From a virus (taxonomy: Duplodnaviria; Heunggongvirae; Uroviricota; Caudoviricetes): a stretch of DNA of 5,991 nucleotides. The position numbers were made by a program, and so were the translations under genes. Of the stretch, positions 663-5,991 are shown in pieces. The stretch lies in the IMG/VR virus record IMGVR_UViG_2698536454_000005, positions 1 through 5,991 of that record; one strand, 5' to 3'. The notes beneath the pieces were generated by a model. The model made no database searches. It had not been told where the DNA came from and worked only from the letters and a program-made list of their open reading frames with translations. Positions within the stretch are counted from its first letter, which is position 1. Each line of letters starts with the position of its first letter.

Positions 663-995
663 ATGCATCGTATAGACACGAAAACCGCGCAGAAGGATAA
701 GTTCGGCGCGGGTAAGAACGGTTTTACCCGTGGTAACCCCCAGACCGGCACACCTGCCACCGATCTGGATGATGACTACTTTGACATGTTGCAGGAAGAA
801 CTCTGCAGCGTGGTGGAGGCATCCGGTGCCAGCCTGGAGAAGGGGCGGCATGACCAGCTGCTTACCGCGCTTCGTGCGCTGCTGTTAAGCCGCAAGAATC
901 CGTTTGGCGATATCAAATCTGATGGCACGGTGAAAACGGCTCTCGAAAACCTTGGTTTGGGAGAAGATCAGTTCAACACTATTGTTTCAGAATAA
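663..995 (+). CDS. Tail-fibre protein, constant N-terminal part (Sc-like), ending in a 9-codon stub after a crossover-site copy; truncated in this arrangement
   Basis: ATG 663 is preceded by GGAG with 6-nt spacing. The N-terminus [21 protein letters not shown] is what I recall from Mu-like/e14-like fibre N-termini. Codons ENLGLGE (946-966) are encoded by the crossover core that also begins both variable cassettes. After the core the frame runs only DQFNTIVSE then TAA. Confidence 0.75.
940..965 (+). other. Site A: 26-bp invertase crossover site inside the fibre constant-part codons (ctctcgaaaacc tt ggtttgggagaa)
   Basis: Near-palindromic 12+2+12 layout. The right half plus next base is identical to 2510-2522 and to the reverse complement of 5912-5924. 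Central dinucleotide tt at 952-953. Same orientation as site B. Confidence 0.6.
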
Positions 996-1046
996 TCACT
1001 TAACCCCATTTATGTCGGTTGAGGTTATAAGTCACGGAGACCAGAT

Positions 1047-1391
1047 ATGTCCTTAAAGTATGCACATGAAAAATTTCATACTGCAGTACTTACTCTTGCG
1101 GGCCATGGAAGTATTCAAGAACGCTTGATTAATTCGTATGTTTTTAGCCTTGGGCATCTTAAAACAGCCGATGATATTCCAAATGCCTTACAAAGCAGGT
1201 TCGATGAATTATGTAAGGAACTGACTAAGTTTGATGCCACTGGCGATGAGGGGCGAGTTCAAGCAACAGTATCAAAACTTAACGATTTCGAGATCAATAA
1301 ACTGATCGAAGATATTGTCAGTCTTAACGATGATATTTGCATGAAATTGGCTCTGACGGATGAGACTTACCAAGACATACACCAAAGTTAA
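1047..1391 (+). CDS. Hypothetical small acidic protein (114 aa), AT-rich cargo gene of unknown function
   Basis: ATG 1047 preceded by GGAG 1036-1039 with 7-nt spacing. A hand-counted 100-bp sample at 1047-1146 is about 35% GC, against about 55% for 701-800. Hand count gives 19 Asp+Glu versus 11 Lys+Arg. No motif I can assign. Confidence 0.65.
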   Translation: MSLKYAHEKFHTAVLTLAGHGSIQERLINSYVFSLGHLKTADDIPNALQSRFDELCKELTKFDATGDEGRVQATVSKLNDFEINKLIEDIVSLNDDICMKLALTDETYQDIHQS

Positions 1392-1418
1392 TTGATTAAA
1401 TTCAAAAAGTTAACGTTC

Positions 1419-1441
1419 AACCAGCCAGTTTTTGGCTGGTT
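1419..1441. terminator. Putative bidirectional intrinsic terminator between the convergent 114-aa and 70-aa genes
   Basis: Perfect 9-bp stem aaccagcca (1419-1427) / tggctggtt (1433-1441) with a 5-nt loop. T-rich tract follows on the plus strand (1442-1450). On the minus strand it is followed by an A/T-rich tract containing a T5 run (complement of 1403-1407). Confidence 0.5.
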
Positions 1442-1475
1442 TATTGTCTTATAATATTCTTGCTCGAATGATGCA

Positions 1476-1688
1476 CTATTTATGATGTAATCCGGACATC
1501 AGTTCATGGACAAGATTATCTCTTTCATTGTGTTGCAACCGTAAATGCATAGCAAAAAGGTGAGCACTATCCTCATTCCTCTTCAAGCCATGCTGTTCAA
1601 GATACCCGAAAAAACGGCTTCTCTTATCCGCTATTTCCTGAGTCTGACGTGCAACATTTACCAAATTTTCTAGCGTTTTTCTTGGCAT
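1476..1688 (-). CDS. Hypothetical small His-rich protein (70 aa), cargo gene downstream of the invertase on the same strand
   Basis: ATG is the complement of 1686-1688. A perfect AGGAGG Shine-Dalgarno (complement of 1696-1701) lies 7 nt upstream. AT-rich. Seven His, no Cys. No recognisable motif. Confidence 0.65.
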   Translation of the reverse strand: MPRKTLENLVNVARQTQEIADKRSRFFGYLEQHGLKRNEDSAHLFAMHLRLQHNERDNLVHELMSGLHHK

Positions 1689-1886
1689 ACTATTTCCTCC
1701 TGAAATTGTTGTAATTCACTAGGATATTCATTTTAATTTGTATCATTTAGTACCAAAACCGCTATCAATTAACAAAGCCATCGTTGTGGTTTACCTTGCA
1801 GCCGTTTTTTGTCATTGACTCTATGTGAAAATAATGAATCATCATGAGATTGGCTCACACGTTCTTGAATTCGACGAGCTGTGTCT

Positions 1887-2441
1887 TTATTTATCTCCTG
1901 CCGGAAACCTCTGATACAAAGTCGATACGCCAACATCATAGATAATCGCAACTTTCTGGCGCGGAACTCCTGATGCAATTAATCGTCCGGCTTGTGCCCA
2001 TTGTTCTGGTGTAAGTTTGGGACGACGTCCACCAATTCGTCCCTGTGCGCGAGCAGCTTCCAGTCCAGCTTTTGTTCGTTCAACAATCAGTTCTCGTTCC
2101 ATTTCAGCCAGGGCCCCCATCACATGAAAGAAAAAGCGCCCCATTGGGGTACTGGTATCAATTGAATCCGTCAGACTACGAAAGTTGATGCCTCGTTCGC
2201 GCAACTCCTCCACCAGCACGACAAGATGCCGCATACTGCGCCCCAGTCGGTCCAGTTTCCAGACCACCAGCGTATCGCCTGCCGATAATGTCCTGAGCAG
2301 TTTTTTCAGTCCCGGCCTTTCGGACTTTGTACCGCTTATCTTGTCTTCAAAAATCAGCTCGCATCCTGCACAGTTCAGCGCATTACGTTGTAGATCTGTG
2401 TTCTGGTCATTTGTTGACACACGTACATAGCCAATAAGCAT
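1887..2441 (-). CDS. pin: Site-specific serine DNA invertase, Hin/Gin/Cin/Pin family
   Basis: Starting from the MLIGYVRVSTNDQ methionine (complement of 2439-2441) gives 184 aa. Catalytic serine lies in the RVSTNDQ context near the N-terminus. Conserved blocks LVVWKLDRLGRS and GRFFFHVMGALAEMERELI are present, with a C-terminal helix-turn-helix (GVSTLYQRFP). AGGGAG sits 7 nt upstream. The ORF-track start at 2477 adds 12 residues encoded by the inverted repeat and is probably not the real start. Confidence 0.93.
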   Translation of the reverse strand: MLIGYVRVSTNDQNTDLQRNALNCAGCELIFEDKISGTKSERPGLKKLLRTLSAGDTLVVWKLDRLGRSMRHLVVLVEELRERGINFRSLTDSIDTSTPMGRFFFHVMGALAEMERELIVERTKAGLEAARAQGRIGGRRPKLTPEQWAQAGRLIASGVPRQKVAIIYDVGVSTLYQRFPAGDK

Positions 2442-2442
2442 G

Positions 2443-2522
2443 GTAGATCTCCCTGACAAAAGCAGGAATGATGCCATTTGCTCGTTATTTCTGCATTTTC
2501 ATAAACGTTGGTTTGGGAGAAG
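2443..2522. repeat. Left inverted repeat (80 bp) of the invertible segment; contains the invertase RBS and site B
   Basis: 2443-2522 is the exact reverse complement of 5912-5991, compared base by base. Identity ends at 2523/5911. Confidence 0.9.
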
Positions 2523-2962
2523 CGGCAAAACGAAATGTGGGCAACGGGGAAAACCAAATCCCTGATATGTCTTTCTGGACGGTTACTGGTGGCAATGGAA
2601 ATTTTGTGATTCGTCAACCTGACGGGCTAATCATTCAGATGGTTACTGTAAGTATAAGCGGTCCAGTGGCGATGAATGGAATGACTGATAATGCTTATGC
2701 CATTACAGGTTCTAATAAGTCTTATATTGCCACAGCCACATTGCCCTTTGTATTTCCTAATAAGGTGCTGGGCGTTATCCCTCTGGTATCAACAACAGCT
2801 TATGGTGGTGTATCCAGTAATATTACAGGTTCATACGCGACGGCGGTTTGTTCTTTTGCCGCTGTCAGGGGGAATAATACGATTGTGTTCAAAGTCGACA
2901 AACCACTGAATGCAGCCTTTCCTTCAGATACCAGCGTCTCAGCGTTAATCATTGGACGGTAA
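2468..2962 (+). CDS. Tail-fibre C-terminal variable cassette Sv1; the first 18 codons are encoded by the inverted repeat and the cassette is not joined to the constant part in this arrangement
   Basis: The frame is continuous with the GLGE codons of the crossover core and unique sequence starts at 2523. Gly/Thr/Ser/Asn/Val-rich 146-aa tip. Stop TAA 2960-2962 is followed 2 nt later by the ATG of a tail-fibre assembly gene. Confidence 0.65.
   Translation: MMPFARYFCIFINVGLGEAAKRNVGNGENQIPDMSFWTVTGGNGNFVIRQPDGLIIQMVTVSISGPVAMNGMTDNAYAITGSNKSYIATATLPFVFPNKVLGVIPLVSTTAYGGVSSNITGSYATAVCSFAAVRGNNTIVFKVDKPLNAAFPSDTSVSALIIGR
2496..2521 (+). other. Site B: 26-bp crossover site (ttttcataaacg tt ggtttgggagaa)
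   Basis: 12+2+12 layout with central tt at 2508-2509. Resembles hix/gix-type sites as I recall them. Lies at the inner end of the left inverted repeat. Confidence 0.7.
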
Positions 2963-3978
2963 GAATGAACTCAGTATTCTTTTCACCCGCAAGTAAAAGT
3001 TTTTATCTGCAAGAATTGTTTCCAGAATATGAGGATGCGGGAACGCTTCCTGATGATGTTATTGAAATTACCAGAGAAACATATGAGCAATTTCTTGGGC
3101 TGCATCCAGAAGGGAAAGAAATTGGCGCTGACAGTTCAGGACGGCCAATATGGATTAATTCCCCGCCGCCTTCAAAAGAGGATGAGATGCTGGCGGCTGA
3201 AATGAAAAAGATATCTTTGGTTTCAGAAGTCAATACCTACATCAATACCCATCAGTGGCCTGGCAAAGCTGCTATTGGTCGTCTGAAAGGTTACGAGCTG
3301 GAACAATATAATTTATGGCTGGATTATCTGGACGCACTGGAACTGGTTGATACCTCCAGTGCTCCAGATATTGAATGGCCTACGCCTCCGGTAGTTCAGG
3401 CCAGATGACATCCGGCGCGGTGCTGGTATCTGTTGCAGTCACCGCGTCAATGTAATCCAGCACAGCGTTAAGCCGGGTTGTTTCTGCCTGCGTCAGCTTC
3501 CGCCCGGCCTGCAATTTCAGCTGAATCAGACTAATGGAAGCCATAGCAGCATCAATCAGTGACTGGCGCCGTACTTCTGCCGCGTCTACTGCGGCGTTAT
3601 GCTGTGCCTCAGTATCGGTCACCCATTTCTCACCATCCCATTTATCGTATGACGTTAACGGGGCGATAGTGGTTGTATTTTCAGGGTAATCACCCGGAAC
3701 TGTGATTTCTTTTGATTCTCCTGTTTCGGTGCTATAGACGATTTCACCGCGATGGTCTGGCACATATTCCCATGAGTTAAAATCTGCAGAACGGCAAATT
3801 GCATAACCAGCTTTATATGAGCCAGGAGCATCTAAACAGGAACATGCCGGGATACCAACACCCACAGCAAGATATTCAGTTGATGTGGAAATATATTCCC
3901 GTGTTTCACCATCATAATTATAAACGGTAATGTCTCCGGCCTTTGTGGCGATGAGTTCATTATTTAATACAGCTTTAC
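2508..3978. repeat. Tandem direct repeat, copy 1 (1471 bp)
   Basis: Matches 3980-5450 at an offset of 1472. Supported by identical translations of three ORF pairs and by reading the boundary regions and one ~470-nt internal stretch directly. Base 3979 matches neither flank. Confidence 0.85.
2965..3408 (+). CDS. Tail-fibre assembly chaperone (Tfa; Mu U / P2 G family) partnered with Sv1
   Basis: C-terminus DTSSAPDIEWPTPP matches the conserved Tfa C-terminal motif (compare APDVIWPELP in the other Tfa here). Coupled immediately downstream of Sv1. Confidence 0.8.
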   Translation: MNSVFFSPASKSFYLQELFPEYEDAGTLPDDVIEITRETYEQFLGLHPEGKEIGADSSGRPIWINSPPPSKEDEMLAAEMKKISLVSEVNTYINTHQWPGKAAIGRLKGYELEQYNLWLDYLDALELVDTSSAPDIEWPTPPVVQAR

Positions 3979-4000
3979 ATTGGTTTGGGAGAAGCGGCAA
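3380..4000 (-). CDS. Tail-fibre assembly chaperone (Tfa) copy whose native ATG start is replaced by the duplication junction; possibly non-functional
   Basis: Identical to the 4852-5457 product from KAVLNNELIATK onward. The native MIS start is absent and the only in-frame start is TTG at 4000, inside the crossover core. Its 3' end overlaps the convergent Tfa gene by 29 bp (3380-3408). Confidence 0.45.
   Translation of the reverse strand: MPLLPNQCKAVLNNELIATKAGDITVYNYDGETREYISTSTEYLAVGVGIPACSCLDAPGSYKAGYAICRSADFNSWEYVPDHRGEIVYSTETGESKEITVPGDYPENTTTIAPLTSYDKWDGEKWVTDTEAQHNAAVDAAEVRRQSLIDAAMASISLIQLKLQAGRKLTQAETTRLNAVLDYIDAVTATDTSTAPDVIWPELPEA
3968..3993 (+). other. Site C: hybrid junction carrying a crossover core half-site (tacagctttaca tt ggtttgggagaa)
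   Basis: The right half and central tt are identical to sites A and B. The left half is the start region of the Tfa gene and does not resemble a site half. Probably a recombination product junction rather than a functional full site. Confidence 0.5.
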
Positions 4001-4434
4001 AACGAAATGTGGGCAACGGGGAAAACCAAATCCCTGATATGTCTTTCTGGACGGTTACTGGTGGCAATGGAAATTTTGTGATTCGTCAACCTGACGGGCT
4101 AATCATTCAGATGGTTACTGTAAGTATAAGCGGTCCAGTGGCGATGAATGGAATGACTGATAATGCTTATGCCATTACAGGTTCTAATAAGTCTTATATT
4201 GCCACAGCCACATTGCCCTTTGTATTTCCTAATAAGGTGCTGGGCGTTATCCCTCTGGTATCAACAACAGCTTATGGTGGTGTATCCAGTAATATTACAG
4301 GTTCATACGCGACGGCGGTTTGTTCTTTTGCCGCTGTCAGGGGGAATAATACGATTGTGTTCAAAGTCGACAAACCACTGAATGCAGCCTTTCCTTCAGA
4401 TACCAGCGTCTCAGCGTTAATCATTGGACGGTAA
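3985..4434 (+). CDS. Duplicate Sv1 variable cassette with no start codon; expressible only if fused to the constant part at site C
   Basis: Translation identical to Sv1 from GEAAKRNVG onward. The frame is closed upstream by TGA at 3952-3954 and has no ATG. Begins at the crossover core. Confidence 0.5.
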   Translation: MGEAAKRNVGNGENQIPDMSFWTVTGGNGNFVIRQPDGLIIQMVTVSISGPVAMNGMTDNAYAITGSNKSYIATATLPFVFPNKVLGVIPLVSTTAYGGVSSNITGSYATAVCSFAAVRGNNTIVFKVDKPLNAAFPSDTSVSALIIGR

Positions 4435-4436
4435 GA

Positions 4437-4880
4437 ATGAACTCAGTATTCTTTTCACCCGCAAGTAAAAGTTTTTATCTGCAAGAATTGTTTCCAGAAT
4501 ATGAGGATGCGGGAACGCTTCCTGATGATGTTATTGAAATTACCAGAGAAACATATGAGCAATTTCTTGGGCTGCATCCAGAAGGGAAAGAAATTGGCGC
4601 TGACAGTTCAGGACGGCCAATATGGATTAATTCCCCGCCGCCTTCAAAAGAGGATGAGATGCTGGCGGCTGAAATGAAAAAGATATCTTTGGTTTCAGAA
4701 GTCAATACCTACATCAATACCCATCAGTGGCCTGGCAAAGCTGCTATTGGTCGTCTGAAAGGTTACGAGCTGGAACAATATAATTTATGGCTGGATTATC
4801 TGGACGCACTGGAACTGGTTGATACCTCCAGTGCTCCAGATATTGAATGGCCTACGCCTCCGGTAGTTCAGGCCAGATGA
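4437..4880 (+). CDS. Tail-fibre assembly chaperone (Tfa), duplicate of 2965-3408
   Basis: Translation identical to the 2965-3408 product. Confidence 0.75.
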   Translation: MNSVFFSPASKSFYLQELFPEYEDAGTLPDDVIEITRETYEQFLGLHPEGKEIGADSSGRPIWINSPPPSKEDEMLAAEMKKISLVSEVNTYINTHQWPGKAAIGRLKGYELEQYNLWLDYLDALELVDTSSAPDIEWPTPPVVQAR

Positions 4881-5457
4881 CATCCGGCGCGGTGCTGGTA
4901 TCTGTTGCAGTCACCGCGTCAATGTAATCCAGCACAGCGTTAAGCCGGGTTGTTTCTGCCTGCGTCAGCTTCCGCCCGGCCTGCAATTTCAGCTGAATCA
5001 GACTAATGGAAGCCATAGCAGCATCAATCAGTGACTGGCGCCGTACTTCTGCCGCGTCTACTGCGGCGTTATGCTGTGCCTCAGTATCGGTCACCCATTT
5101 CTCACCATCCCATTTATCGTATGACGTTAACGGGGCGATAGTGGTTGTATTTTCAGGGTAATCACCCGGAACTGTGATTTCTTTTGATTCTCCTGTTTCG
5201 GTGCTATAGACGATTTCACCGCGATGGTCTGGCACATATTCCCATGAGTTAAAATCTGCAGAACGGCAAATTGCATAACCAGCTTTATATGAGCCAGGAG
5301 CATCTAAACAGGAACATGCCGGGATACCAACACCCACAGCAAGATATTCAGTTGATGTGGAAATATATTCCCGTGTTTCACCATCATAATTATAAACGGT
5401 AATGTCTCCGGCCTTTGTGGCGATGAGTTCATTATTTAATACAGCTTTACTTATCAT
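4852..5457 (-). CDS. Tail-fibre assembly chaperone (Tfa; TfaE / Mu U' type) partnered with Sv2
   Basis: ATG (complement of 5455-5457) overlaps the Sv2 stop in an ATGA arrangement. C-terminus TSTAPDVIWPELPEA carries the conserved Tfa motif. Confidence 0.85.
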   Translation of the reverse strand: MISKAVLNNELIATKAGDITVYNYDGETREYISTSTEYLAVGVGIPACSCLDAPGSYKAGYAICRSADFNSWEYVPDHRGEIVYSTETGESKEITVPGDYPENTTTIAPLTSYDKWDGEKWVTDTEAQHNAAVDAAEVRRQSLIDAAMASISLIQLKLQAGRKLTQAETTRLNAVLDYIDAVTATDTSTAPDVIWPELPEA

Positions 5458-5966
5458 GCAGCCCTCACAATATAATTAAAGGCGATGTTACGGGAGCGGG
5501 TTTCAGATGCTGTGCGAACTGAGCGAGATGCGTCGAATGTCCAGTTATAAGCGCCATAACCCTCAATAATTTCGGCTTCCTTTAGACCTGTAGATAATAC
5601 TTGCCCATGTTGACTAAATGGCCCTGAACTAAGTACGTCTCTAAAAAGCTGGGTACGCCCAAAAGAACCAACAATATTCTGAATTGCATCATTCTGTGCA
5701 GATAATAAGTTACGACCAGAGTCAATCCCGCGCCCATCATCCCAGCCACGAATAAATTCACCGCGTAAATCTGGTAATTTTAATGTTGGGTAAGCCTTTG
5801 CCAGATTTGGGTACTTTTCAGAAGAAAATACTGCTCCGTTACATTTTAGCCACCCCGTTGGCGGAGTGGCGGAAGGCCACGGAACAGGCACACCAACGGG
5901 TAATGCCGAACCTTCTCCCAAACCAACGTTTATGAAAATGCAGAAATAACGAGCAAATGGCATCAT
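5454..5966 (-). CDS. Tail-fibre C-terminal variable cassette Sv2 (receptor-binding tip of the P2 H / Mu S / Stf type); first 18 codons encoded by the inverted repeat
   Basis: Carries conserved tail-fibre tip motifs: PWPSATPPTGWLKCNGA, YPNLAKAYP, LPDLRGEFIRGWDDGRGID and the C-terminal NIAFNYIVRAA. In frame with GLGE of the crossover core. Confidence 0.85.
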   Translation of the reverse strand: MMPFARYFCIFINVGLGEGSALPVGVPVPWPSATPPTGWLKCNGAVFSSEKYPNLAKAYPTLKLPDLRGEFIRGWDDGRGIDSGRNLLSAQNDAIQNIVGSFGRTQLFRDVLSSGPFSQHGQVLSTGLKEAEIIEGYGAYNWTFDASRSVRTASETRSRNIAFNYIVRAA

Positions 5967-5991
5967 TCCTGCTTTTGTCAGGGAGATCTAC
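5912..5991. repeat. Right inverted repeat (80 bp, cut by the window end)
   Basis: Exact reverse complement of 2443-2522. May extend beyond position 5991. Confidence 0.9.
5913..5938 (+). other. Site D: 26-bp crossover site (ttctcccaaacc aa cgtttatgaaaa), inverted relative to A, B and C
   Basis: Reverse complement of site B, with central aa at 5925-5926. Confidence 0.7.

What the first reader, a model, noticed from the sequence alone, without database searches (positions are those of the whole stretch)
1047..1391. 114-aa acidic protein of unknown function (candidate anti-defence or defence effector)
Good Shine-Dalgarno, clean ORF, net negative charge by hand count (about 19 acidic versus 11 basic residues), no Cys-rich or nucleotide-binding motif visible. 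It is on the late-gene strand with no obvious sigma-70 promoter of its own, so in this arrangement it may be read through from the tail operon. Small acidic phage proteins are often DNA mimics or inhibitors of host defence, but this is speculation from composition only.
Basis: inference. Interest (0 to 1): 0.6.

Follow-up and report, generated by a model that had tools for sequence, protein, structure and literature searches.

The report
Small helical prophage cargo protein
The 114-residue ORF is a real gene from a previously undescribed, widely scattered family of small four-helix-bundle proteins carried as cargo on mobile elements; it shows no sign of being a DNA mimic or known anti-defence protein, and its link to the tail operon is a one-off rearrangement in this sequence.

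Summary
The ORF (1047-1391, +, 114 aa, GGAG SD, 19 acidic/11 basic, pI 4.9) is confirmed and is a real gene. An exhaustive HMMER search finds 540 cluster representatives (30-48% identity, about 100-110 aa), and a 32-sequence alignment gives a confident AlphaFold model (pLDDT 93.8) of an up-down four-helix bundle. The family is absent from Pfam, NCBIfam, PHROGs, PADLOC and PDB. Fold searches return only generic helical bundles. It is absent from 50,697 sequenced phage genomes. In E. coli it normally lies in a low-GC cargo block (343-aa membrane protein > 114 aa > terminator < 70 aa < pinE) at the ssrA end of a Pin-bearing Mu-like-tail (SfV/e14-like) prophage, on the strand opposite the tail genes. 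The window's join of the tail-fibre gene to the last 9 codons of the 343-aa gene occurs in no other sequence searched, so tail-operon read-through is not a property of the gene. The 343-aa neighbour occurs alone elsewhere, and distant homologues have no conserved partner. Some are fused to Mrr-nuclease, HicB-N or RHH modules. Best guess (confidence 0.4): a protein-binding module of toxin-antitoxin/defence-type systems expressed in the lysogen. The anti-defence/DNA-mimic reading is not supported. Interest is low to moderate.

The parts
1047..1391 (+). The 114-aa ORF (identical to RefSeq WP_000054185.1, 'hypothetical protein'). It is a member of an undescribed family of about 100-aa four-helix-bundle proteins.
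1036..1039 (+). Shine-Dalgarno GGAG, 7 nt upstream of the ATG
   Evidence: read directly
1419..1441 (.). G+C-rich hairpin (10-bp stem) between the convergent 114-aa and 70-aa genes; terminator-like on the + strand
   Evidence: fold z = -2.5
967..995 (+). Remnant of the normal upstream gene: the last 9 codons plus stop of the 343-aa gene (WP_021530618.1), here fused in frame to the tail-fibre N-terminus
947..966 (+). Pin crossover site at the end of the constant part of the tail-fibre gene. The private junction lies at its outer (right) edge, at 966/967.
663..995 (+). Truncated tail-fibre ORF (110 aa): StfP-type N-terminal constant part joined to DQFNTIVSE*
966..1900 (.). Low-GC cargo island (37% GC; GC3 of the ORF 0.34) set against 55-57% GC tail genes
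1476..1688 (-). 70-aa basic ORF (pI 9.4; WP_001137529.1). It is always present with the 114-aa gene in E. coli, lies downstream of pinE, and has no recognisable family.
1887..2441 (-). pinE serine invertase (184 aa as annotated in RefSeq)
2503..2522 (+). Pin crossover site next to pinE. Its centre (2507/2508) is one end of the 2,637-bp circular record.
1272..1290 (+). Pseudo-crossover site inside the ORF (TCAAAACTTAACG|ATTTCG). In another E. coli isolate the ORF is broken here and joined to the pin-proximal sequence (protein P0005).

Best explanation
Shown: the ORF encodes a soluble, mildly acidic up-down four-helix-bundle protein. It belongs to an undescribed family that is phylogenetically broad but sparse (Enterobacterales, cyanobacteria, Chloroflexota, Deinococcus, Alphaproteobacteria, Bacteroidota). 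In E. coli it is one gene of a low-GC cargo block (343-aa single-pass membrane protein, 114 aa, 70 aa) that sits beyond pinE at the ssrA end of a Mu-like-tail (SfV/e14-like) prophage. That is the kind of position that holds lysogenic-conversion or defence genes in related prophages. It normally lies 51 nt behind the 343-aa gene on the same strand. Inferred: it is co-transcribed with the 343-aa gene in the lysogen, not with late genes. It has no catalytic-looking motif and no DNA-binding features, so it most likely acts by binding another protein, as a small regulatory, sensing or neutralising module of a toxin-antitoxin-like or phage-exclusion function. This inference rests on where relatives are found (next to integrases, a serine recombinase, ParA, Phd/PIN and HicA genes and TIR proteins, on plasmids and integrative elements) and on fusions of the domain behind an Mrr-type nuclease domain, a HicB N-terminal antitoxin domain and a ribbon-helix-helix domain. 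The tail-operon linkage seen in this window is a private rearrangement or assembly product, not part of how the gene works.
For: Real gene and fold. Usual context is 343 aa > 114 aa > hairpin < 70 aa < pinE next to ssrA. Low-GC island. Distant homologues sit in accessory regions of mobile elements: next to tyrosine integrases (L013, L015), next to a serine recombinase 37% identical to PinE plus an XRE regulator (L019), near ParA (L015, L018, L019), and among TA and TIR genes (L014, L015, L017, L034). Domain fusions: Mrr_cat-X (P0042, E 7e-5, above Pfam's cutoff), HicB/UPF0150-X (P0060, E 7.5e-6), RHH-X (P0140, E 2.4e-4), and a membrane anchor-X (P0112). The neighbouring 343-aa family is a typical prophage moron: it occupies the rexAB position after cI in Yersinia, lies inside a tail cluster in Klebsiella, lies at a prophage end in Enterobacter, and occurs in temperate phages phi458 and PhiR12. 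From general knowledge: e14 carries mcrA beyond pinE and SfV carries gtrABC beyond its tail-fibre genes.
Against: No partner is conserved. The 343-aa family occurs without any 114-family gene, and eight distant loci share no neighbour family beyond recombinases and ParA. The RHH-fusion gene has no toxin gene in an operon with it. Three Enterobacterales homologues are solitary chromosomal genes. The HicB and RHH fusion hits fall just under Pfam's curated cutoffs, and two further 'RHH-like' extensions were not confirmed. No PADLOC model matches. There are no expression or phenotype data. The context sample is small: about 13 independent loci out of 540 representatives.
Confidence: 0.4

Rival explanations
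1. Anti-defence protein: a small acidic inhibitor, by DNA mimicry or direct binding, of a host restriction, CRISPR or other immune system, made by the mobile element to protect itself.
For: It is small, 94% of family members carry net negative charge, and it is carried on prophage, plasmid and integrative-element DNA. One member weakly hits Pfam Tad5.
Against: Charge is modest (-8; pI 4.9). There is no structural match in BFVD or PDB. Tad5 hits 1 of 149 members, which is chance. There is no copy in 50,697 phage genomes and the family is on only 3 of 72,556 plasmids. It sits at the distal cargo end of a prophage next to a lysogen-type moron, not in an early or leading region. Fusions are to a nuclease, HicB-N and RHH, which are defence/TA-type parts.
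Confidence: 0.12
2. The domain is itself the toxic or effector moiety of a TA-like or abortive-infection unit. Upstream RHH, XRE or HicB-N modules, fused or separate, would be the neutralising or autoregulatory part. In E. coli it would be a stand-alone effector kept in check by expression level or by the 70-aa or 343-aa neighbour.
For: Its size and its position downstream of small DNA-binding modules mimic the antitoxin-then-toxin gene order: RHH-X fusion P0140, XRE then X in L019, HicB-N-X P0060. It occurs in TA-rich neighbourhoods.
Against: It is acidic, with no catalytic motif. The only near-invariant polar residues are R26 and E68. Most members stand alone with no candidate antitoxin. The exact protein is present, unchanged, in thousands of E. 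coli assemblies.
Confidence: 0.15
3. Accessory factor of site-specific recombination: it modulates Pin or integrases, for example directionality or site choice.
For: A recombinase gene lies within about 1 kb in 4 of 8 loci compared: pinE in E. coli, a PinE-like serine recombinase in L019, and tyrosine integrases in L013 and L015, the last overlapping the gene's stop. Several aberrant Pin-type rearrangements surround the E. coli gene.
Against: The recombinases belong to two unrelated classes, and many loci have none nearby. The protein is acidic and unlike known DNA-bending directionality factors. Proximity to integrases is expected for any cargo gene.
Confidence: 0.07
4. A passenger gene with a cellular role unrelated to conflict (for example a stress or metabolic adaptor), which merely hitch-hikes in variable regions.
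For: Solitary chromosomal copies lie beside a transporter, a porin, and umuDC/SRAP in Pantoea, Atlantibacter and Serratia. No defence or anti-defence model matches.
Against: The distribution is sporadic across phyla, the E. coli island is low in GC, mobile-element contexts recur, and the fusions are of TA or nuclease type. No LexA box supports an SOS link.
Confidence: 0.2

Closest known systems
Cargo ('moron') genes at the distal end of Pin/Gin-type prophages, e.g. mcrA beyond pinE in E. coli K-12 prophage e14, or gtrABC beyond the tail-fibre genes of phage SfV (from general knowledge)
   Same: The position is the same: beyond the tail-fibre inversion module and its invertase, next to the attachment site. 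The block has foreign base composition (37% against 55-57% GC) and its own terminator, and it varies between related prophages.
   Different: The proteins are unrelated to McrA or Gtr. No function is known, and the block holds three small or unknown genes.
DNA-mimic anti-restriction proteins (T7 Ocr, ArdA)
   Same: Both are small, acidic and carried on mobile elements.
   Different: Those proteins have extreme negative charge arrayed to imitate DNA (pI about 4 or below, from general knowledge). This one has net charge -8 and pI 4.9, a compact four-helix bundle, no fold or sequence match, and is absent from sequenced phages.
Modular type II antitoxins (RHH or HicB N-domain plus a second domain)
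   Same: Some family members have exactly that two-part layout, with this domain as the C-terminal part. Relatives lie among TA genes.
   Different: No cognate toxin gene is adjacent, either to the fusion examined or to the stand-alone genes. The E. coli protein has no DNA-binding part.
Generic up-down four-helix bundles such as HPt/CheA-P1 phosphotransfer domains
   Different: No histidine is conserved in the family, identity is 8-12%, and equally good matches go to cytochrome oxidase subunit 3 and designed bundles. This is fold convergence, not membership.
Recombinase-activated phage inhibition by PinQ/e14 (Kirigo et al., NAR 2025, PMC12529663)
   Same: It involves the same kind of Pin-invertible tail-fibre module in a cryptic E. 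coli prophage, and it shows that Pin-driven rearrangements there can create new products that affect phage infection.
   Different: That effect comes from a chimeric tail-fibre protein (StfE2). Nothing links the 114-aa protein to it, and the window's junction is not a clean Pin crossover.

Membership tests
DNA-mimic anti-restriction proteins (Ocr/ArdA type) | Very high negative charge density (pI about 4 or lower) arrayed to mimic the DNA backbone | tested here: not met
   19 acidic against 11 basic residues, net -8 over 114 aa, pI 4.91; family median net charge -6 and pI 4.94
DNA-mimic anti-restriction proteins (Ocr/ArdA type) | Sequence or fold similarity to a known member | tested here: not met
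Known anti-defence families (e.g. Pfam Tad5, Thoeris inhibitor) | Reproducible profile match across the family | tested here: not met
   Tad5 matches 1 of 66 and 1 of 149 members and does not match the window protein
Known anti-phage defence system components (PADLOC-DB v2) | Match to a defence-system protein model | tested here: not met
   No hit at E<=1 for the 114-aa, 70-aa or 343-aa proteins. Newer DefenseFinder and AntiDefenseFinder models could not be searched.
Type II antitoxin | Adjacent, co-oriented toxin gene forming a two-gene operon | tested here: not met
   No neighbour family is shared among 8 loci. The RHH-fusion gene stands alone beside a complete Phd/PIN pair.
Type II antitoxin | DNA-binding domain (RHH, HTH, AbrB or Phd) | tested here: not met
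   The window protein is the bare helical domain. Only rare relatives carry RHH or HicB-N.
HEPN four-helix nucleases | Conserved R-x(4-6)-H motif and a match to HEPN profiles | tested here: not met
   R26 is near-invariant, but no His is conserved anywhere in the family. No HEPN Pfam hit in 149 members.
HPt/CheA-P1 phosphotransfer domain | Conserved phospho-accepting histidine on a solvent-exposed helix | tested here: not met
Prophage moron / accessory cargo gene | Lies in a prophage outside the core modules, has atypical base composition, and is variably present among related prophages | tested here: met
   37% GC against 55-57%. It lies between pinE and the ssrA attachment end. It is present with >=80% query coverage in 46 of 5,426 complete E. 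coli genomes, while the flanking tail-fibre and pin sequences occur in about 1,500.
Prophage moron / accessory cargo gene | Own transcription signals (promoter and terminator) allowing expression in the lysogen | tested here: inconclusive
   A terminator-like hairpin is present. No convincing sigma-70 promoter was found by consensus scan, and the number of sites does not exceed shuffled controls. No expression data.

The most novel reading that the evidence does not exclude
The 114-aa protein is the E. coli representative of a new, promiscuous 'conflict-system' domain. It would act as a stand-alone sensor or neutraliser, alone or with the neighbouring 343-aa membrane protein, and give the lysogen a previously unrecognised anti-phage or plasmid-exclusion function. 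In this lineage the whole cargo block (pinE + 70 aa + 114 aa + 343 aa) could also be moved, excised as a 2.6-kb circle, or rewired to the late tail operon by off-target Pin recombination.
Probability: 0.15. Interest if true: 0.6.

Novelty: new member of a known kind. Interest (0 to 1): 0.3.

Why it matters
If the binding-module idea is right, this family is one more uncatalogued part of bacterial toxin-antitoxin and defence toolkits: about 540 representative clusters, no Pfam entry, and a confident fold. The exact protein is on record in thousands of E. coli assemblies and the block is present in pathogenic E. coli strain 042, so it is easy to test. It also shows that 'small and acidic' is a poor predictor of anti-defence function. 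For annotation, it warns that gene order inside Pin-invertible prophage regions in draft assemblies can be private or artefactual, so operon inferences there need checking against other genomes.

Tried and rejected
- **Single-sequence family scans.** Pfam, PHROGs, NCBIfam and PADLOC found nothing.
- **First AlphaFold run.** With 4 near-identical sequences it gave pLDDT 49 and was unusable. It was replaced by a run on a 32-sequence alignment.
- **Profile against PDB sequences.** Only chance hits, the best being a dynactin peptide at E 0.08.
- **Tad5 lead.** It matched 1 of 149 members, so I rejected it.
- **'The 343-aa and 114-aa proteins are an obligate two-gene system'.** Rejected. 343-family genes in Enterobacter, Yersinia, Klebsiella and metagenomes, some of them 65% identical to the E. 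coli protein, have no 114-family gene nearby.
- **'SOS-regulated gene'.** This was prompted by umuDC/SRAP neighbours in Serratia and Atlantibacter. No LexA box lies upstream of any of 12 loci, so I rejected it.
- **'The 74-aa gene before hicA in L017 is a split HicB-N'.** No similarity.
- **'The window junction is a Pin crossover with a site in the 343-aa gene'.** Rejected. The break is at the outer edge of the half-site, not the central TT, and the 343-aa gene has no site there.
- **'The window junction is a k-mer graph mis-join'.** Unlikely, because the two parents share no long k-mer.
- **Searches for the junction.** None in IMG/VR, JGI metagenomes, 5,426 E. coli genomes or the exact-protein index.
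- **The search for related loci with broad alignments.** It failed for lack of a conserved 7-mer. A narrow alignment gave only 3 genomes.
- **AFDB50 fold library.** Not available.
- **Rfam scan of the window.** No RNA family.
- **70-aa and 343-aa proteins against PDB sequences.** Nothing.

Full report
**1. The observation**

ATG is at 1047, the TAA stop ends at 1391, and it encodes 114 codons. GGAG lies at 1036-1039, seven bases before the start. The hand count is right: 19 Asp+Glu against 11 Lys+Arg, 2 Cys, pI 4.91. No Pfam, PHROG, NCBIfam or PADLOC model matches the protein. In the window it shares a strand with the baseplate and tail-fibre genes. No promoter-like or terminator-like site lies between the upstream stop (995) and its start, and a 10-bp-stem hairpin follows it at 1419-1441.

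**2. It is a real gene and belongs to a large, undescribed family**

- **Homologues.** A word-seeded search found only six close clusters. An exhaustive HMMER scan of 1.84 billion cluster representatives found 540 proteins at E<=1e-3 and 40 at E<=1e-10. Nearly all are 97-126 aa, with 30-48% identity over the whole length.
- **Conserved positions.** Alignments of 66 and 149 members show Y5, (W)7, E8, K9, A13, R26 (99%), A30, P45, E68-G69 and A73.
- **Fold.** With four near-identical sequences AlphaFold gave pLDDT 49. With 32 diverse homologues it gave pLDDT 93.8 and pTM 0.85, an up-down four-helix bundle with a conserved 'GDEG' loop before the last helices.
- **Alleles.** The E. coli alleles differ by two synonymous changes only.
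- **Charge.** Mild acidity is a family trait: 94% of members are net negative, with median net charge -6 and median pI 4.9.
- **Carriers.** Named carriers include Serratia, Yersinia, Pantoea, Atlantibacter, Chroococcidiopsis, Dictyobacter, Deinococcus, Methylobacterium and a Chitinophagaceae MAG. All are annotated 'hypothetical protein'.

**3. What it is not**

- **Known protein families.** No Pfam, NCBIfam or PHROG family recurs among 66 or 149 members.
- **Tad5.** The single Tad5 (Thoeris inhibitor) hit is 1 of 149 members, so it is chance.
- **Motifs.** No histidine is conserved, so neither HPt nor HEPN chemistry applies.
- **Phages and plasmids.** tblastn with the protein and with the family consensus finds no copy in 50,697 phage genomes. 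Only three of 72,556 plasmids carry it.
- **Conclusion.** With net charge -8 this is not a DNA mimic of the Ocr/ArdA type, and nothing ties it to a known anti-defence or defence protein.

**4. Its real genomic setting**

- **The cargo block.** The ORF lies in a low-GC island: 37% GC at 966-1900 and GC3 0.34, against 55-57% GC and GC3 0.62 in the tail genes. From window 965/968 onward, the sequence through the 114-aa gene, the hairpin, a 70-aa basic ORF (1476-1688, minus strand) and into pinE (1887-2441, minus strand) is 99.7-100% identical in 46 complete E. coli genomes.
- **The usual upstream gene.** In those genomes the upstream sequence is not a tail gene. It is a 343-aa hypothetical gene (WP_021530618.1) that ends ...[14 protein letters not shown], 51 nt before the 114-aa gene. 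The whole block lies next to ssrA, and the tail-fibre cassettes and baseplate genes lie on the opposite strand beyond pinE.
- **How consistent this is.** The exact protein is indexed in 5,504 blocks of public assemblies. All ten places shown have 343 aa > 114 aa > < 70 aa. In some, the adjoining prophage has lambda-like tails and pin is truncated or missing. In one, a P4-like satellite lies between ssrA and the block. Five IMG/VR proviruses show the same block.
- **Interpretation.** The gene is prophage-end cargo. This is the position that holds mcrA in e14 and gtrABC in SfV (general knowledge).

**5. The window's arrangement is private**

- **The junction.** In the window the constant part of the tail-fibre gene (663-966) ends with its Pin crossover site (AAACCTTGGTTTGGGAGAAG, 947-966). 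It is joined directly to the last nine codons of the 343-aa gene, giving a 110-aa truncated fibre ORF.
- **Where else it occurs.** Nowhere that I searched: 0 of 5,426 complete E. coli genomes, the exact-protein index, IMG/VR and JGI metagenomes.
- **A near-identical contig.** IMG/VR scaffold L035 is 99.95-100% identical to pieces of the window, yet it has the normal 343-aa gene and the normal fibre junction.
- **Nature of the break.** The break is at the outer edge of the half-site, not at the central TT where serine invertases cut. It can be read as a join at an AGGT/AG microhomology between GAGAAGGTTCGG and CTATAGGTCAGTTC. It carries one base that neither parent templates.
- **Other signs of trouble in the window.** There is a 1,472-bp tandem duplication whose junction abuts a half-site and again has an extra A. 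The terminal 80 nt are an inverted copy of the pin-proximal sequence, which is what a graph walk through a population mixed for the inversion state would produce.
- **Conclusion.** Without reads I cannot decide whether the junction is a real rearrangement or a chimera. Either way, 'read through from the tail operon' is not a property of the gene.

**6. Partners and neighbourhoods**

- **The 343-aa neighbour is independent.**
  - It has one central hydrophobic segment and an Enterobacterales-only family of 76 clusters.
  - In Yersinia prophages it lies directly after cI, the position rexAB holds in lambda.
  - In Klebsiella it lies inside a tail cluster, and in Enterobacter at a prophage end.
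  - It occurs in the temperate phages phi458 and PhiR12.
  - None of those loci, nor metagenomic homologues about 65% identical to the E. coli protein, has a 114-family gene nearby. So the two are stacked cargo genes, not an obligate pair.
- **Distant 114-family members have no conserved neighbour.** They lie in mobile or accessory DNA:
  - beside tyrosine integrases (L013; L015, where the stop overlaps the integrase start, on a plasmid-like contig with Rep, Mob, ParA, PIN and TIR genes);
  - after a PinE-like serine recombinase and an XRE gene on a Methylobacterium phage-plasmid-like replicon (L019);
  - near ParA and a T4SS coupling protein on a Deinococcus plasmid (L018);
  - among Phd/PIN, SieB and TIR genes in an integrative element (L014);
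  - after hicA (L017);
  - before a DUF5677 gene (L016).
- **Enterobacterales copies.** The Serratia, Atlantibacter and Pantoea copies are solitary chromosomal genes. Two of them lie near umuDC or SRAP, but no LexA box is present.

**7. Domain fusions**

Among the longer hits, P0042 has an N-terminal Mrr_cat restriction-nuclease domain (E 7e-5, above Pfam's cutoff). P0067 and P0025 look like decayed versions of the same fusion. P0060 has a HicB/UPF0150 antitoxin N-domain (E 7.5e-6). P0140 has a ribbon-helix-helix domain (E 2.4e-4). P0112 has membrane helices, and P0023 and P0065 are tandem duplications. The RHH-fusion gene stands alone next to a complete Phd/PIN pair, so it is not a classical antitoxin with a downstream toxin. 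These fusions place the domain among the parts used by TA and defence-type systems.

**8. Most likely mechanism**

- **Shown.** It is a soluble four-helix bundle, it is prophage-end cargo, it is normally co-oriented 51 nt behind a membrane moron, it has no enzyme-like or DNA-binding signature, and it has mobile-element and TA-type associations.
- **Inferred.** It is expressed with the 343-aa gene in the lysogen and acts by binding a protein, as a regulator, sensor or neutraliser in a TA-like or exclusion function. Confidence is 0.4.
- **Rivals.** A passenger with an unrelated cellular role (0.2), a toxin or effector moiety (0.15), an anti-defence protein (0.12), and a recombination accessory factor (0.07).

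**9. Novelty and score**

The sequence is already in RefSeq as a hypothetical protein, but the family has no Pfam, NCBIfam or PHROG entry. By kind it is one more prophage cargo gene of unknown function, so I rate it a new member of a known kind. Interest is 0.3. It is not surprising to a specialist, but it has a well-defined fold, a large family and an accessible E. coli model. The aberrant Pin-linked rearrangements around it (section 5 and the items noticed in passing) are arguably more curious than the protein.

Noticed in passing
L020 (NZ_CP148395.1, 1-2637) = L001:5904-8540; window 2507/2508: A 2,637-bp record deposited as a circular E. coli plasmid consists of exactly pinE + 70-aa + 114-aa + 343-aa genes. 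One end is the exact centre of the Pin crossover site next to pinE (TTTTCATAAACG|TT...). The other end is a weak pseudo-site just 3' of ssrA. It looks like a Pin-made excision circle of the cargo block, though an assembly artefact is not excluded.
   Followed up: partly
window 1272-1290 (inside the ORF); protein P0005 (E. coli ACE450_004465): In another E. coli isolate, residues 1-79 of the 114-aa protein are followed by VYGNAEITSKWHH.... That is the minus-strand reading of the pin-proximal sequence beyond the crossover centre (compare ORF 2375..2617, minus strand). This fits an inversion between the pin-proximal site and a pseudo-site TCAAAACTTAACG|ATTTCG inside the ORF, which destroys the gene.
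   Followed up: partly
window 947-995: The private junction joins the tail-fibre constant part and its complete crossover site to the last 28 nt of the 343-aa gene. The break is at the outer edge of the half-site, with one base (A967) templated by neither parent. It is found in no other sequence searched, not even in the near-identical IMG/VR scaffold L035.
   Followed up: yes
window 2505-3976 and 3977-5448: A perfect 1,472-bp tandem duplication of a tail-fibre C-terminal cassette plus two assembly-chaperone genes. Its junction (GCTTTAC-A-TTGGTTTGGGAGAAG) abuts the left edge of a crossover half-site and also carries an extra A.
   Followed up: partly
window 5912-5991 versus 2443-2522; L037: The last 80 nt of the window are an exact inverted copy of the pin-upstream sequence plus its site, so both ends of the invertible segment are joined to 'pin'. 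IMG/VR contig L037 likewise has two inverted copies of 70 aa-pin. This is what an assembly walk through a population mixed for the inversion state would give.
   Followed up: partly
window 2468-5966: A multi-cassette invertible tail-fibre system: alternative C-terminal cassettes (gp53-like C domain; Collar domain) with two tail-fibre assembly genes, and four copies of the crossover sequence (947, 2503, 3975 on +; 5912 on -). Related genomes carry different cassette sets.
   Followed up: partly
L001:5997-7028 (normal upstream neighbour; only its last 9 codons are in the window at 967-995): The 343-aa single-pass membrane protein family (Enterobacterales, no Pfam) behaves as a stand-alone prophage moron. 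It occupies the rexAB position after cI in Yersinia, lies inside a tail cluster in Klebsiella, and occurs in phages phi458 and PhiR12, where a 26%-identical relative is annotated 'T2SS GspM containing protein'. It is a candidate exclusion or abortive-infection gene.
   Followed up: partly
window 1476-1688 (-): A 70-aa basic ORF (pI 9.4) about 200 nt downstream of pinE is always present with the block in E. coli. It has no match in Pfam, PADLOC, PDB sequences or phage genomes.
   Followed up: partly
L019 (Methylobacterium aquaticum pMaqPC2) 5041-6315: A distant homologue of the 114-aa protein lies directly after a serine recombinase 37% identical to PinE and an XRE regulator, on a 38-kb replicon that also carries tail genes and ParA. 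The recombinase-then-cargo layout therefore recurs in an unrelated lineage. That plasmid and the Deinococcus plasmid each show two matching places.
   Followed up: no
L006 1-8204: In one E. coli genome a P4-like satellite (Psu, Ogr/Delta, AlpA, primase) lies upstream of the cargo block, in the place occupied by ssrA and its chromosomal neighbours in the other genomes, so the ssrA site was apparently used again.
   Followed up: no
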